From NCBI GenBank assembly GCA_964016885.1, contig CAXHJY010000252.1, forward strand, positions 62,001 to 126,000: a stretch of 64,000 nt of DNA, in the 5' to 3' direction. This document shows positions 44,971 to 55,199 of the stretch, one piece after another. The number at the start of each line of letters is the position of its first letter. Position 1 is the first letter of the stretch. The notes below the pieces were generated by a model. It saw only the letters and a program-made list of their open reading frames with translations, did no database searches and was not told where the DNA came from. A program made the translations under genes and the position numbers. This DNA comes from Eledone cirrhosa. Lineage: Eukaryota.

Positions 44971-46165
44971 TAAATGGGCGCCTGGCACCACGAGTGCCTT
45001 CAGGCGTTCATAGCCCTTTACCAAGCGGAAACGGCAATCAGCGGAGACTCCACTTAGACATTCTATAGGGGATTAGTGGAGGATAAGTGCGACGACGTTC
45101 TCAGGGAAACTCTAGGCATCGAGGAAGACGAACTGACCAGTCTGTTCGGGAAGACTTTCCGTCCAGGGCCTCTGGATAACAGCAGAGCTCAAGCCGTTTC
45201 GACGGCTATTTCAGAAATAGCCGTCGAAAGGGCTTGAGCTCTGCCGTCGGGGTCATACTTTTTCATATATATATATATATATATATATGTGTGTGTGTGT
45301 GTGTGTGTGTGTGTGTGTGTGTGTTTACATGTGTATTTGCATGTATGAGTGTGTATGAGTATACTTTCGCGTGTGTCCTCAACAATTAACTGACATTCAT
45401 ACACTGATGTATTGTTATAAGTGGCAGCCATGTTGCTAAACTTTAACCCCTCCAAACACAAAAGAGTGACTCATCATTCAACGTCATTCGCAGCTCCTGT
45501 CTATTTGATTTCACACAATTCTTATATTTAAATCTTCTATTTACCAACTCTGACTTTCTCTAGACTGCTTCCTTCAATTTCCCTGGCATTCTTTCAAATA
45601 AACCCATATATACATATATACATATATATATATATATATATATATGTATATATGTATATATATATATATATACATATATACATATATATATATATATATA
45701 TATATATATGTATATATATATATATATATATACATATATACATATATACATATATATATATGCATATATACATATATACATATATATATATATATATATA
45801 CATATATATATATGCATATATACATATATACATATATATATATATATATATGTATATATGTATATGTATATATATATATATATATATATATATATATGTA
45901 TATATGTATATATATATATATATATATATATATATATATATATATATATATATATATTGTTATATTTGGGGAGGGTCATATTTGCGTAATATTGCCAGAA
46001 TTAATAACAGAACACACTCACTGTTTGGTTGGTTTTCGCTTCTCGCTGTCTTTTATATATATATATCTGCGATCTAGCTTACTCGGTCCTCAATGTTGCC
46101 ATTGACTGACCGGCGGTCAAAAATAATACAGATACAATATAGACAAACACATATATATATAGTTT

Positions 46166-46205
46166 ACATAAATCTTTCGTTGCACATCTGCAACATCGTC
46201 AGTGG
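46166..46205 (-). ncRNA. Hammerhead in PLE UTR, unit 1
   Basis: CTGACGA-t-GTTGCA-gatg-TGCAAC-GAAA-gatt-TA. Stem I is short. Confidence 0.65.
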
Positions 46206-46479
46206 TGTTATATTCATTGTTCCTCCTGTTGTGTTGTATGTCTACGCCATTTTTTTTGTTCAGTCTGTCTATATATTTATTTATTTATTTGCTTGTTTGT
46301 TTATCTTATTTTATTTTGTCTTCTTTGCGCATGCGTTTGCGTGTGTGTATAGTGTTATGTGTGATGTGTGATGTGTGACTAGTGTGTATAGTGTTGTCTG
46401 CTGGGTGACTAGTGTGTGTTTATGTGCTTGTGTATGTATTTATTTATCTTATTTTATTTAATTTAATTTACTTATTTAT

Positions 46480-50610: not shown

Positions 50611-53600
50611 TTATACTTCTCTTAGGTCAGTGTTGTTTGTTTGGGTGTTGTTGTTGTTCCACTCATTCTTTCTGTTTAGCTTTGGTCTTCTAATTTCTAT
50701 TTCACTGGCCTCTCTGATTTGCCTATCTGCTGGGTCATTCCTATGTTTAGATATTATTCTAATTTCTATGTTGTCTATGTTACCGTCATGATGTTGTCTA
50801 GCATGTTCGTATAGTACTGACCCGTTTTTTCGTCCTTTTAGTTCCCCCCAGTGTTGGTCTATCCTTTCACCTATGCTACGAGCTGTCTCACCTATGTATG
50901 TTGTTGTCGTGTTTCTGCAAGTACCCTCTGTACATCTTATGCTATAGACTACGTTTCTAGTTTTACAGTTTATCCGGGGGTTCACCTTACATATGATACA
51001 TTTCCTATTGGTACAGTGGGTTTTCTTAAAAGGGTAGGTTTTGCTGATCAGGGATTTTATGGTGGTTCCTGGCTTTTCTACCACCTTTATTTTTAAGTGG
51101 GTCTTTCTCAGGGCCTTTCTACACTGGTTAGCTAATTTCCCTCCAGGGGTGGCGTCCACAAACATGACACTCTGATATCTCTGGTTGTCGTACCATGATG
51201 TGGCCTTCCCTATCTTATGTCTAGCCCTATCTAAGCTATTCCATGATTTGCTCCTGTATAGTGGGCAAATTCCTTTCATGTCCAGTTCTATGAGGGTCTT
51301 ATACTTTTCCATGGCTCCTTCGTATACTCTGACTCTGTCTCTTTGGTTGTAGCCAGAGAACTGCATGCGGTTGATGAAGTGTTGGATGTGTCCTTCCATT
51401 TCTGTTGGGTCGCACATGATGGACACATTCTTCATCACTCGTACCAAATCTGCGATCAGAATATTAAACTTAGCACTACTGGACATTGCTGAGTTTTTGA
51501 GTATCAGGTATTTGGAGGCCATGGGTTTAGCATAGTGTGAGTGGAGAATTTGGGCTCTCTCGTCTATAGTGTTAATCCAGAGTTCTGTGTCTAATACAGG
51601 TAGTCTATTGTTAGGGTGTTTGGAAGGGAAGTCTATAGTTACAGTTATACTCTGGTGTATGGAATTAGCTATCTGCTGGATGCTTTCCATCGTGCTACGT
51701 TCTAAATCAAACTTGTTAGTGCTGTCTAGTGGGGGTGTTCTTATAACTATATTGATATCGTCTACATAACGAGAGTACATGATGAGGTCTATGGAGCTTT
51801 CATTAAGGAGATCTTTAAGTCTCCTTTCCCACCATACCATGAAAAGGTTGGCAACATCGCCAGCTATGCTGACGCCGATGGCTGCTCCCTCATTTTGGGT
51901 GTAGATTTTCTCATTGAACTTAAATATGTGGCCCTTTAGGGTAGTTTTGATACTAGCCCCTATTGCATGTGCGACCATTTTTCTTACCTGATCAGTGTTT
52001 TGGGGGGTCCGTATAGCTTTGGTCCACCCAATCCACCTTCCTATGGGAGTCTTTTTAGCCATTGAGGTTATGGTGGGGGGTCTACCTCTTATAGGTCTAC
52101 TAGGGCAGAAACATCTAAGGTCATGGCTGTCTAGGTAGTCAGTGTCGTAGGTAAGTCTAAGTAGGAGGCCCAGTTCGTCTGTGTCGACGTCGCAGAACTC
52201 CACCTCACTCTCAATGATCATCTCCACACATCTTTTCACAGCAAAATCAATGTTAATGGATGGGTACAGTGACACCACATCCATGCTGCCTATTATGCAG
52301 TTGGATAGGCTCCTGTTTTTGTTGCACTCACTGATTCTGCTGAGGAGGTCCTCTGTACTTTCACATACATCTGGGGACATCTTGATTATGGGGCGTATAA
52401 CCATTGAGAGGAAGTAGGAGATCCTGTAGTTGCTAGCTATATTAGCTCCGCATACAGGTCTTGTTGGTGGTCCTATTGTCGGGTCGTCGACTGTCTTGTG
52501 GTCTTTGCGGAGCCCATACAAGGGTGGTATGCCATTGTTAGACGCCTGGAAGTTGTTGGCAGTGCGTCTGCTTGGCTTTAGGATGTCAGTCCACATCATC
52601 ATGTGAGCGTTGAGGATTTTTTCTCTCCCATCGTGTGTTAGTTGTGCAACTTCGCTCGTGTTGGTGATGTGGGGTTGCATTGCCTCGATGTAGTTCGGCA
52701 TGCTATCTATTGACATCCTACCAGACTTATCTGTGGGTAGACACACTACCTCACCATCCCTTGTGCGCTGCTTGAGGCTAACCAAGCCTTCTACAGGTTT
52801 TATCCCAAGTTGTTGGGCCTCTGGTCTGCTCTGTCTCATAGTGTACCTGTCTACTACTTGTCTAATCTTATTTCTAGCTATGGTGAACTGTGCCTCCGTC
52901 TCGTCATCTATTTGTTGTGGTATGCAAACTCTTTTATTAAAGGGTAACCTCGTAGGATAGATATTACCCATCTTATATGTTTTGTCAGCTGGGTTGAAAA
53001 ATAGTTTCTCTAAGGGGTTGTCGTTATTTCTATCGTCATAGTTGTGTGTGTTGCTATTATTGTTATCATGGTGGTTGTTGTTGTTTCTATCCTTAGCATT
53101 AATATTATTATTGTTATGATTGCTAGATGTATTGTTGTTTACTTCACCGTTATTGTTGTTGTTACTGCTATTTCTACCATTGTGGTTGTTACTATTATTA
53201 TGTTTCTTGTTTTTGTTGATGTTGCTACATGTACTATTTCCATTATTACCACTGTGGTTATTGTTGTTGTTGTTGTTCGTATTGTTACCGTTATTACTAC
53301 TGTGGTCACTGTTGCTGTGTCTGTGGTTAACGTTTCTATTATTATTATTATTGTGGTTGTTGTTGTTCTGTCTATCGCTAGTATTATTACCATTATCACT
53401 ATTTCTCACTTTCCTGCCATTGTTATGGTTATGGCTGTTATTTCTATACCCAGAGTTATTGTTTATATTACTACTACCGTTATTATTGTTGTTGTTGTTT
53501 ACCTTTGCATTCCAACGTATTTTTGTGAAACACTTTTCCAGCTCCGTTTTGCATTCCATAGGATTAATTTTTTTGTAGATGGCAAATTTTGGTGGTAACT

Positions 53601-54226
53601 TTAGGATTTGTTGTTCTTGTTCACTGATTAAAGTGTTCCCATAGATATTTACTGTGTGGTCATTGGTAAATTCTTCCGGTAGTTTTACATCACTCATACG
53701 GATGTTGTCGATGTTATCTGGGTATTTTTGAGAATATTCGATTTTCCTTTCTTGTAGTTTTTTCTTATTCATCCATTCTAATTTCTTCTTGAAATGCCTA
53801 CAGCATTCGTTTTGAGCATATTTCGTTTCGCGTCGGATGACGCTCATGAAGTCATCTCTCTCGTTTGCTGTGATGAGATTTCGGATTTCCTTACCGTTGA
53901 TGCGTTTTTGTCTGTAGAGTGCGTTGACTTTTGTGTATGTTGTTCTTTTCATATTAACTGTTATTGTGTGTTTTAGCCGTTCAGCTTGTGTTTTGTTCAA
54001 TAATAAATTATTTACTTGTTTTGATATGTTTGTTGTGTATGTTTTGGAGGAAACACAGTGTTTTAAGAAGCGGATTTGTTCTGTTGTTATTGTAGTTTTT
54101 ATATAACAGAAAACAGTGTCTTTCAATAACCTTTCAGCTTGGCACAAGCTAATGCCATAGCGGCGATGAATTAGTTTTGCGAGGTTTTTTATATGAAATC
54201 GTGTGTCGAAACAGATATTGTTATAT
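50611..54226 (-). CDS. Second copy of the PLE polyprotein, lacking the first 14 nt including ATG
   Basis: Identical translation, truncated at the inversion junction 54226. Confidence 0.9.
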
Positions 54227-55199
54227 CAGTCAATGGCAACATTGAGGACCGAGTAAGCTAGATCGCAGATATATATATATAAAAGACAGCGAGAAGCGAA
54301 AACCAACCAAACAGTGAGTGTGTTCTGTTATTAATTCTGGCAATATTACGCAAATATGACCCTCCCCAAATATAACAATATCTGTTTCGACACACGATTT
54401 CATATAAAAAACCTCGCAAAACTAATTCATCGCCGCTATATATATATATATATACATATATACAAATATATATATATATATATATATATACATATATACA
54501 TATATATATACATATATACATACATACATAGAAATATTTATATACATACATACATACTTACATACATACAAATATATACATACATACATATATACAAATA
54601 TATATATACATACATACATGCATACACATACATACATATATACAAATATATATATACATACATACATACATACATACATACATACATACATACATACATA
54701 CATACATACATATACACATACATACATGCGAACATACATACATGTATACACACGCACACACACACATACATACATATATACACACATACATACATACACG
54801 CACACACACACACACACACATAAATATACACACGCATACACACACAGGTATCTCTCTCTCTCTCTCTATATATATATATATATAAATATATATATATATA
54901 TATATATATATATATGCAGTTCTAGTCCTGTAGAAGCGATTTCTATATCAAATAATCATATATATATATATATATATATATATATATATATATATATATA
55001 TATATATATATATATATATATATATACACACAATATACACATATACATATATACCTATGTGTATATATATATGTATATAGTGTGTGTATGTGTATGTTTA
55101 CATACACACACATAATACATATATGTATATATATATAAGTATCTGTATGTGTATACACACACACGCACATATACTTATATACACACTACTCTCCAATTT

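What the first reader, a model, noticed from the sequence alone, without database searches (positions are those of the whole stretch)
45954..54439. Intact PLE as an exact two-unit head-to-tail array with one hammerhead per 4.13 kb
Seen: two almost identical units with only ~500 bp between the stop and the next ATG, and HHRs 4130 nt apart. Established: PLEs form partial tandems and carry HHRs in their pLTRs. Inference: HHR-to-HHR cleavage releases a unit-length RNA holding the whole ORF. Two full turns plus a few nt suggests reverse transcription around a circular RNA, or repeated template jumping. This is a candidate active master copy.
Basis: partly seen in the sequence, partly recalled or inferred. 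Interest (0 to 1): 0.75.

Follow-up and report, generated by a model that had tools for sequence, protein, structure and literature searches.

The report
Young tandem Penelope retrotransposon with hammerheads
This is a likely young Penelope-type retrotransposon, probably from an octopus, present as two near-identical 4.13-kb copies plus a short inverted end, a layout already described for this family; its predicted hammerhead ribozymes would allow a circular RNA template, but nothing here shows one.

Summary
The tandem is in the sequence: two minus-strand units (4130 and 4131 bp) differing by one base in a poly-T run, 501 bp between stop and ATG, one hammerhead (HHR) core per unit 4130 nt apart. 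It is not an exact, intact two-unit array: the upstream ORF lacks its first five codons, and a 214-bp inverted copy carrying a 60-nt tail closes the far end; both ends abut (TA)n. This is the described active Penelope form (tandem plus inverted end) with the upstream copy cut by only 14 nt. The protein is a telomerase-like RT with C-terminal GIY-YIG, Nematis-like linker, 68% identical to an Octopus vulgaris protein. The HHR is a weak dimer-type motif (2-bp helix I). The circle idea is Cervera and de la Pena's 2014 hypothesis; the sequence cannot separate it from uncut read-through RNA or template jumps, and 0 of 8 related arms in the window end at the predicted cut. Side result: the lineage has a ~70-aa RT finger insertion of telomerase length, not reported for C-terminal-EN PLEs in what I read. 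Verdict: new member of a known kind; useful test case.

The parts
45956..50085 (-). Unit 1 (downstream copy, 4130 bp): ORF from codon 9 on + 3'UTR/pLTR + start of next ORF
50086..54216 (-). Unit 2 (upstream copy, 4131 bp), identical to unit 1 but for one extra T at 50380; supplies the pLTR and ATG of the intact ORF
54217..54226 (-). 10-nt stub of a third turn; 5' end of the direct arm at +15 of the ORF
54226..54439 (+). Inverted arm, 214 bp, 100% identical to 50239-50026 (-130 to +84); 1-nt overlap at the junction; lacks the HHR
54380..54439 (+). 60-nt 'tail' present only on the inverted arm; long 3' end (S2, about +84) abutting (TA)n
45954..45979 (-). ORF stub MTLPKYNN; short 3' end (S1, +24 to +26) abutting (TA)n
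46480..50109 (-). Intact 1209-aa ORF (P0001): N-terminus, Asn-rich insert, TERT-like RT, linker, GIY-YIG endonuclease
50611..54225 (-). Upstream ORF copy lacking codons 1-5, preceded by TGA; first ATG at 53952 (1113 aa)
48874..49368 (-). Asn-rich in-frame insert, aa 248-412, 49% N (also in unit 2)
47764..48150 (-). RT motif 3 (D654) to motif 4 (Q782): 128 aa, i.e. a ~70-aa finger insertion relative to canonical PLEs
46543..46884 (-). Cx4CxxC-x7-C linker and GIY-YIG endonuclease (VVY..YIG, CCHH, R1126, H1130, E1177, N1189)
45980..46479 (-). 3'UTR / pLTR of unit 1
50110..50610 (-). 3'UTR of unit 2 = pLTR upstream of the intact ORF (501 bp); TATAAAAG at 50187 and GTGAGT at 50151 lie in blocks conserved in an older copy (promoter-like, inferred only)
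46160..46210 (-). Type I hammerhead motif 1: CUGACGA at 46202, 6-bp helix II, GAAA, self-complementary AGAUUU helix III, 2-bp helix I; predicted cut 46169|46168
50290..50340 (-). Type I hammerhead motif 2, identical; core at 50332; predicted cut 50299|50298
45604..45957 (.). Left flank: compound (TA)n microsatellite (target)
54437..54900 (.). Right flank: compound (TA)n/(TACA)n microsatellite (target); a target-site duplication cannot be read

Best explanation
This is a Penelope-like retrotransposon with two near-identical units and an inverted end in a (TA)n run, likely inserted recently in one event in which its endonuclease would nick both strands of the run, its reverse transcriptase would prime at two fixed sites inside the start of its own ORF on likely uncut, terminally redundant RNA, and the two cDNAs would be joined head to head. 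The left nick started at the short site (+24/26) and copied two units plus 12 nt; the right nick started at the long site (+84) and copied 214 nt; they met with a 1-nt overlap. The second unit likely came from uncut read-through RNA of a tandem donor or from a template jump across the repeated pLTR, and the long cDNA likely ended at +15 because that region is where the second priming complex sits or where the endonuclease resolves the intermediate. The hammerhead is likely a real, conserved, weak dimer-type ribozyme whose cleavage is probably not what made this copy. Shown: layout, ends, ORF, motifs. Inferred: every step of the reaction, the template, the age, activity.
For: Layout and identity. 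Two fixed 3' ends recur: of 7 independent 3' ends of related copies in the window, 3 are at the short site (45954, 18853, 21928), 3 at the long site (54439, 22284, 1287), 1 elsewhere (41412); a contig of another organism also ends at 50084 in (TA)n (X7). A second two-armed insertion at 21928-22284 has one short-site and one long-site end facing outwards, and its short-site arm stops at about +2. In vitro, an anole PLE nicks and extends both strands, starts RT at two internal sites that define the tail, uses unprocessed RNA as dominant substrate, and is unaffected by HHR mutants (PMC11167929). Tandem plus inverted end is the frequent active form in Drosophila (PMC2377424) and typical in rotifers and other PLEs. 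0 of 8 arms in the window end at the predicted HHR cut; 6 run through it, 2 stop before reaching it. Helix I is 2 bp here against 5 bp in the sister family at 22024. 0 substitutions in 4143 and 214 columns fits a recent event. Catalytic residues invariant among 48 homologues are present.
Against: No RNA, read or cleavage data exist for this locus. In Drosophila a donor with one ORF between pLTRs yields mostly tandem progeny, which needs template re-use and is explained as simply by a circle. The HHR core is kept: 34 identical nt in an older copy that is 74% identical overall, and strict hits lie within 500 nt after the endonuclease in 5 of 18 distant relatives, 0 expected, so it likely does something. 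Arms running through the HHR site fit a religated circle equally. A linear donor with three ORF starts was not seen. The stop near the ORF start rests on 2 insertions. This locus's own inversion junction is not among the 15 joints shown (37 more were hidden).
Confidence: 0.5

Rival explanations
1. Rolling reverse transcription on a circular RNA: two HHRs of one transcript pair through their self-complementary helix III, cut out a 4130-nt RNA, it is ligated, and RT primed at the short site goes twice round before being stopped or cut at the tail region.
For: One HHR per unit and the whole ORF between the cuts. AGAUUU can pair with itself over 6 bp, as dimer-type PLE HHRs do. A linear HHR-to-HHR RNA offers only about 215-273 nt upstream of the RT start sites, so if cleavage happens, a circle (or jump) is needed to copy the ORF (geometry). 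A transcript starting in unit 2's pLTR ends at +24, so by analogy with the anole element's need for the first 172 nt of the ORF this locus would need a circle or jump to make full copies. Single-ORF donors give tandems in flies. Small HHR retrozymes do form circles (PMC7229834).
Against: Helix I is 2 bp with a G-U in helix III; metazoan PLE HHRs cleave poorly in vitro; HHR mutants did not change insertion in vitro and no RNA-seq read ends were found at the anole HHR. No arm of 8 ends at the cut, as cut linear by-products should sometimes give. A circle gives no reason by itself to stop 12 nt past two turns. I found no report of a full-length PLE circle in searches.
Confidence: 0.27
2. One unit was inserted and later duplicated at DNA level (microhomology-mediated tandem duplication over the 10-12-nt terminal repeat) or a second insertion landed in the (TA)n next to the first and was joined by homology.
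For: A 12-nt repeat ATATAACAATAT flanks each unit. A small local tandem duplication of a related end exists at 21864-21952. Both units share bases at which contigs of organisms A and B mostly differ.
Against: 0 substitutions between units means any duplication was as recent as the insertion. A single-unit precursor with a 10-nt 5' repeat still needs a stop at the unit boundary. The shared differences (7 non-synonymous, 4 synonymous among the 11 flagged of 35 ORF rows typed from the 40 shown of 182) may simply be species differences (inconclusive).
Confidence: 0.1
3. Assembly artefact: the real locus has one unit and the assembler walked a repeat cycle twice.
For: Units are identical but for a homopolymer base. 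Relatives collapse into cycles in short-read assemblies: L001, L008, L012, L015, L016 carry 99-130-nt terminal repeats. Both flanks are long microsatellites. No laid contig spans the unit.
Against: The window has no N and keeps (TA)n runs up to 146 bp and compound arrays of several hundred bp, which suggests long reads (inference) able to span 8.5 kb. The two ends fall on the family's two biological end sites, and the layout is a known one.
Confidence: 0.1

Closest known systems
Drosophila virilis Penelope, active form (Schostak et al. 2008, PMC2377424, Fig. 1C legend and passages)
   Same: Two tandem copies, upstream one 5'-truncated, with inverted terminal repeat; pLTR of the upstream copy precedes the full ORF; short optional 3' repeat (34 bp there, 60 nt here). 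Its HHR also has a 2-bp helix I, 6-bp helix II and palindromic helix III (PMC4209133).
   Different: Upstream copy here lacks only 14 nt of the ORF; protein has a Cys linker, an Asn-rich insert and a ~70-aa RT3-RT4 insertion; target is (TA)n.
Nematis clade of C-terminal-EN PLEs (alignments in the supplement of Craig et al. 2021, PMC8557442)
   Same: Short CxnCxxC-x7-C linker before GIY-YIG, CCHH motif, insert between K.HK and RP in RT1-2, VEKPG-like motif before the linker (compared by eye).
   Different: RT3-RT4 spacing 128 aa here against about 57-60 (hand count) in the Nematis, Neptune and Penelope rows of their Fig. S1; host probably a cephalopod; no tree could be built with reference sequences.
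PAc (Poseidon, Anolis carolinensis; Frangieh et al. 2024, PMC11167929)
   Same: Two RT start sites inside the ORF start bounding a tail; AT-rich target; both strands extended; HHR near the pLTR-ORF junction.
   Different: Sites at +24/+84 here against about +111-118 for the main site; HHR lies 190 nt upstream of the ATG here instead of overlapping it; different clade.
Adineta vaga Penelope families (Arkhipova et al. 2013, PMC3846280)
   Same: Direct pLTRs plus inverted pLTR with optional tail; ORF start inside the pLTR; in-frame Asn-rich inserts.
   Different: There one ORF between 218-bp pLTRs or a partial tandem; Asn-rich inserts lie in or after the RT, here before it.
Non-LTR retrozymes (PMC7229834)
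   Same: Head-to-tail units with one type I HHR each; proposed circle-templated insertion.
   Different: Non-coding, 170-400 nt, canonical HHRs, circles shown; here a 4.13-kb coding unit with a weak HHR and no circle shown.

Membership tests
Penelope-like elements, C-terminal EN+ | Single ORF with RT followed by GIY-YIG endonuclease | tested here: met
   1209-aa ORF; D654, YVDD 825, VVY 1097, YIG 1115; homologue P0051 has weak RVT_1 and GIY-YIG hits; P0001 itself had no Pfam hit
Penelope-like elements, C-terminal EN+ | RT closest to telomerase RT | tested here: met
   Model pLDDT 91.8; top Foldseek hits are TERTs (E 2e-9); top 15 VIA rows are TERTs, e.g. human 7trd Z 15.1, rmsd 3.8, 376 aligned
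Penelope-like elements, C-terminal EN+ | CCHH motif with two Cys between GIY and YIG | tested here: met
   C1103, C1108, H1146, H1151 in P0001; C1103 invariant, H1146 and H1151 >=90% in 48 sequences
Penelope-like elements, C-terminal EN+ | pLTR by tandem arrangement, inverted 5' copy, optional tail | tested here: met
   description
Penelope-like elements, C-terminal EN+ | HHR motif in the pLTR | tested here: met
   Descriptor hit once per unit, 0 in 300 shuffles; no Rfam hit
Penelope-like elements, C-terminal EN+ | No insertion in the RT fingers (as stated for canonical PLEs by Craig et al.) | tested here: not met
   RT3-RT4 spacing 128 aa; 124-141 in the 102 of 121 held proteins where both motifs matched against about 57-60 hand-counted from their Fig. 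S1. Lowers fit to described clades, not PLE identity
Nematis clade | Reduced Cys linker (short spacer between CxxC and the pre-GIY Cys) | tested here: met
   Spacer 7 aa; 6-10 aa in 104 of the 108 proteins (of 121) where the pattern matched; Nematis rows
Nematis clade | RT phylogenetic placement with reference Nematis elements | not testable with these tools
   Reference proteins were seen only as paper text and were not available as stored sequences
Neptune clade | Long Cys linker (about 25 aa between CxxC and the pre-GIY Cys in the Neptune rows shown) | tested here: not met
   7 aa here against Neptune rows; Neptune is paraphyletic, so placement near it is not excluded
Penelope/Poseidon clade | No Cys linker between RT and EN | tested here: not met
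   Cx4CxxC present at 1076-1084
Naiad/Chlamys | N-terminal endonuclease, no canonical HHR | tested here: not met
   EN is C-terminal
Hydra clade | CCHH motif absent | tested here: not met
   CCHH present
Dimer-type type I hammerhead of metazoan PLEs | CUGANGA, extra nucleotide, G10.1-C11.1, GAAA, UH, palindromic helix III | tested here: met
   CUGACGA-U-GUUGCA/UGCAAC-GAAA-GAUU-UA; AGAUUU self-pairs over 6 bp
Dimer-type type I hammerhead of metazoan PLEs | Helix I of 4-5 bp (2 bp in the D. virilis variant) | tested here: inconclusive
   2 bp next to the core plus a weak distal AU stretch; fits only the D. virilis-type variant
Dimer-type type I hammerhead of metazoan PLEs | Self-cleavage | not testable with these tools
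   needs an assay
Non-LTR retrozyme | Non-coding unit of 170-400 nt | tested here: not met
   4.13-kb coding unit

The most novel reading that the evidence does not exclude
The locus is a snapshot of rolling reverse transcription on a hammerhead-ligated 4.13-kb circular RNA by a dimeric PLE protein that primes both target strands at two fixed sites and stops at its own binding site after whole turns, in an undescribed marine PLE lineage whose RT carries a telomerase-length finger insertion that could give it the processivity for multi-unit copies. It would be the first autonomous retroelement shown to copy itself from a ribozyme-made circle.
Probability: 0.2. Interest if true: 0.75.

Novelty: new member of a known kind. 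Interest (0 to 1): 0.33.

Why it matters
How PLEs regenerate tandems, and what their hammerheads do, is still open (PMC2377424, PMC4209133, PMC11167929). A mutation-free, nearly complete dimer with both ends readable, an intact ORF and defined start and cut sites is a good substrate for deciding between circle, jump and read-through. It does not by itself decide anything. The finger insertion is of interest for RT-telomerase evolution if it proves unreported.

Tried and rejected
Whole-genome copy census: no genome held. Rfam: no HHR family at gathering score or E<=10. Pfam: 0 families for P0001. PDB sequence search with profile A1: one RT hit at 9.5e-6, uninformative. MFE folding of 49990-50400 was not better than shuffles (z -0.91; it keeps helix II, not the active HHR fold). 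Sequencing runs: no RNA holder listed. Laid contigs cannot span the array, show RNA ends or give copy number; no loose end at the predicted cut was among the 24 rows shown of 661. Synonymous/non-synonymous test of window-specific bases: inconclusive. Other two-ORF tandems were not found in the 64 of 70 metagenome loci self-compared; most are too short. Loose HHR descriptor gave 11 of 18 but included weak hits; the strict count 5 of 18 is used. ESM Atlas for aa 640-800 gave unnamed eukaryotic clusters at 0.91-0.93, a lead only. Whether the finger insertion folds like the TERT IFD was not tested separately (whole-model searches only). Motif words RPVCG and LRKDHK were absent from the Craig supplement text, which is mostly DNA and gapped alignments, so this says little. 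Four look-ups in earlier findings returned nothing. Rejected: Naiad, Hydra, Poseidon, retrozyme (membership table); LTR element (no integrase, no LTR pair).
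Full report
Observation. The element lies on the minus strand. Unit 1 (45956-50085, 4130 bp) and unit 2 (50086-54216, 4131 bp) align over 4143 columns with 0 substitutions and one gap, an extra T in a poly-T run at 50380. The direct arm runs 45954-54226, two units plus 12 nt. The junction has a 1-nt overlap. Both outer ends run into compound (TA)n arrays, so no target-site duplication can be read. The ORF at 50109-46480 is whole (1209 aa); the upstream copy begins at codon 6, is preceded by TGA, and its first ATG gives 1113 aa. 501 bp separate the upstream stop from the ATG.

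Protein. P0001 has RT motifs (D654, Q782, YVDD 825), a Cx4CxxC-x7-C linker, and a GIY-YIG endonuclease with CCHH, plus a 165-aa insert of 49% Asn before the RT. Pfam gave no hit for P0001. The search with aa 420-1200 gave 142 proteins at E<=0.001 among 3765 candidates; the best is an Octopus vulgaris protein at 68% identity, the next at 42-52% from unnamed assemblies. With the microsatellite-rich window this suggests an octopod host (inference). The AlphaFold model of aa 420-1209 has pLDDT 91.8 and its best solved matches are telomerase RTs. The short linker and nearby motifs resemble Nematis rows more than Neptune rows in the Craig et al. supplement (by eye); no tree with references could be built. 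RT3-RT4 spacing is 128 aa, and 124-141 aa in the 102 of 121 held proteins where both motifs matched, against about 57-60 in canonical PLEs and about 115 in human TERT (hand counts from Fig. S1). Craig et al. state that canonical PLEs lack this insertion except sporadically in Coprina; a short Cys-rich insert at this place is known in two rotifer families. I found no description of this long insertion in searches, but the key 2006 phylogeny paper and Repbase were not available to me, so novelty is unproven.

Hammerhead. CUGACGA-U-GUUGCA-GAUG-UGCAAC-GAAA-GAUU-UA occurs at 46202 and 50332. A strict descriptor hits once per unit in sense and 0 times in 300 shuffles. Rfam does not match it. Helix III (AGAUUU) can self-pair as a dimer; helix I has 2 bp beside the core. 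This fits the D. virilis-type variant in Cervera and de la Pena. An older copy at 18853-19131, 74% identical over the aligned pLTR, keeps 34 consecutive nt of the core. A sister family in the window has a 5-bp helix I (22024). In 5 of 18 metagenome relatives with at least 300 nt after the endonuclease a strict HHR lies within 500 nt, 0 expected from shuffles; 13 of 18 have none. The motif is therefore real and conserved; activity is untested. Predicted cuts are 50299|50298 and 46169|46168, 189 nt before the ATG.

Ends. The left end stops at +24 to +26 of the ORF and the inverted arm at about +84. Of 7 independent 3' ends of related copies in the window, 3 use the short site, 3 the long site and 1 neither. 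The insertion at 21928-22284 repeats the two-armed plan: a 25-nt short-site arm and a 332-nt long-site arm facing outwards. A third inverted pair lies at the window start, split by a later insertion. Of 8 arms, 6 pass through the predicted HHR cut, 2 stop before it, and none ends at it.

Public runs. 20 of 24 listed runs hold part of the unit, the best at a word share of 0.80, none on record as RNA. On four contig sets, summed and single-contig depth falls from the 3' to the 5' end of the ORF (X3 single contigs 81.7, 68.8, 40.9, 30.6, 24.1, 16, 15) and is higher in the pLTR. The tool warns that such depth is no copy number; as a trend it fits the usual 5' truncation and suggests multi-unit copies are a minority, which neither model forbids. 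One X7 contig ends at 50084 in (TA)n, one X6 contig at 50046 in (TA)n. No piece spans the unit, so the array was not verified.

Mechanism. In vitro the anole PLE nicks and extends both strands, starts RT at two sites inside the ORF that bound the tail, needs the first 172 nt of the ORF, prefers unprocessed RNA and is indifferent to HHR mutations. That maps directly on the two arms here. Because the start site is fixed just inside the ORF, a two-unit cDNA needs an RNA with three ORF starts, a template jump over the repeated pLTR, or a circle. The stop at +15 (a window of 26-70 nt in 4130, 0.6-1.7% by chance, chosen after the fact) is best explained by something at the ORF start: the second priming complex, endonuclease resolution at the tail (suggested), or an RNA 5' end near the ATG (a TATAAAAG lies at 50187, inference). 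None of these needs a circle and a circle does not supply the stop. I put uncut linear RNA with read-through or jumps at 0.5, the circle at 0.27, later DNA duplication at 0.1 and assembly error at 0.1. In favour of the circle: fly donors with one ORF yield tandems, the HHR is conserved, and this locus's own 3' end lacks the region that PAc needs for priming.

Comparison. Tandem plus inverted end is the frequent active form in D. virilis, where about 30% of copies are tandems with a variably truncated upstream copy. Inverted pLTR, tail and Asn-rich inserts are described in Adineta. The circle model, including its use to explain head-to-tail tandems, is stated in Cervera and de la Pena 2014. O. 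vulgaris has 336 recently active Penelope-like insertions in 31 families. So the finding is an extreme but ordinary member of a known kind.

Papers seen: PMC8557442 (part 1 of 10, passages, section 12, supplement parts 53, 54, 57, 58 and two supplement searches); PMC4209133 (parts 1-2 of 4); PMC11167929 (parts 1-2 of 4; supplements not read); bioRxiv 10.64898/2026.07.22.740005 (part 1 of 5 and passages; supplements closed); PMC3846280, PMC2377424, PMC7229834, PMC13282606, PMC12602865 (passages only; the last gave nothing relevant). Figures were not visible, so clade ranges in Craig Fig. 8 and HHR drawings in Cervera Fig. 2 are unseen and could bear on clade assignment and HHR type. HHR numbering, Helitron end features and long-read error types are from my own knowledge.

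Verdict. Real layout (pending long reads), known architecture, published and unproven circle hypothesis, one plausible active ORF. Interest 0.33.

Noticed in passing
window 47764-48150 (-); proteins P0002-P0121: A large marine PLE lineage with C-terminal endonuclease and a ~70-aa conserved insertion between RT motifs 3 and 4 (ELG, P..R..G..P, W739), giving telomerase-like spacing; confidently folded in the model.
   Followed up: partly
window 21864-22284: Second two-armed insertion of a sister family: 25-nt arm ending at the short site, 332-nt arm ending at the long site, with a good HHR at 22024 (5-bp helix I); the short arm is locally duplicated.
   Followed up: yes
window 1-1291: Third inverted pair of the sister family; the plus arm has an HHR core deletion and is split by a ~900-bp insertion.
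   Followed up: partly
window 262-1161 (-): The splitting insertion looks like a non-autonomous Helitron (5' TC, 3' hairpin then CTAG, between A and T) with internal 36-bp tandem repeats.
   Followed up: no
window 18853-19131 (-): Older pLTR-only copy of the same family; HHR core (34 nt) and a 42-nt block before the ATG are identical while the rest diverges.
   Followed up: yes
window 41412-42283 (-): 5'-truncated relic of the sister family with endonuclease remnant (52% aa identity) and a mutated HHR core.
   Followed up: partly
window 19150-19200 (+) and 26902 (-): Hammerhead-like motifs of other families (CTGAAGA...GAAAC with a 5-bp helix I; CTGATGA...GAAAC), probably ends of other PLEs or retrozymes.
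   Followed up: no
window 14435-14507 (+), 20705-20776 (-) with an inverted partial copy near 20850-20910: tRNA-like sequences found by Rfam, probably SINE heads; the second sits in a larger inverted duplication.
   Followed up: no
window 19410-19530, 21620-21740, 22430-22475, 45180-45255: Repeated long-hairpin element (GACCCCGACGGCAGAGCTCAAGCCG...) next to (TA)n, unclassified.
   Followed up: no
window 50151-50195 (-): TATAAAAG followed about 30 nt later by ACAGTGAGT, in blocks conserved in the older copy: possible core promoter or splice donor; if transcription started there the mRNA would hold only one HHR.
   Followed up: no
L001, L008, L012, L015, L016: Relatives assembled as unit-length cyclic contigs (3.3-3.8 kb); L001 and L012 have one strict HHR per unit. 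A short-read cycle arises from any partial tandem and is no evidence of circular RNA.
   Followed up: partly
P0066: A clear PLE protein annotated to a bacterial MAG (Candidatus Brocadiaceae), likely eukaryotic contamination.
   Followed up: no
runs X1-X12: Near-identical element sequence in runs labelled as nine organisms (word share 0.21-0.80): close relatives, recent spread or contamination; not resolved.
   Followed up: no
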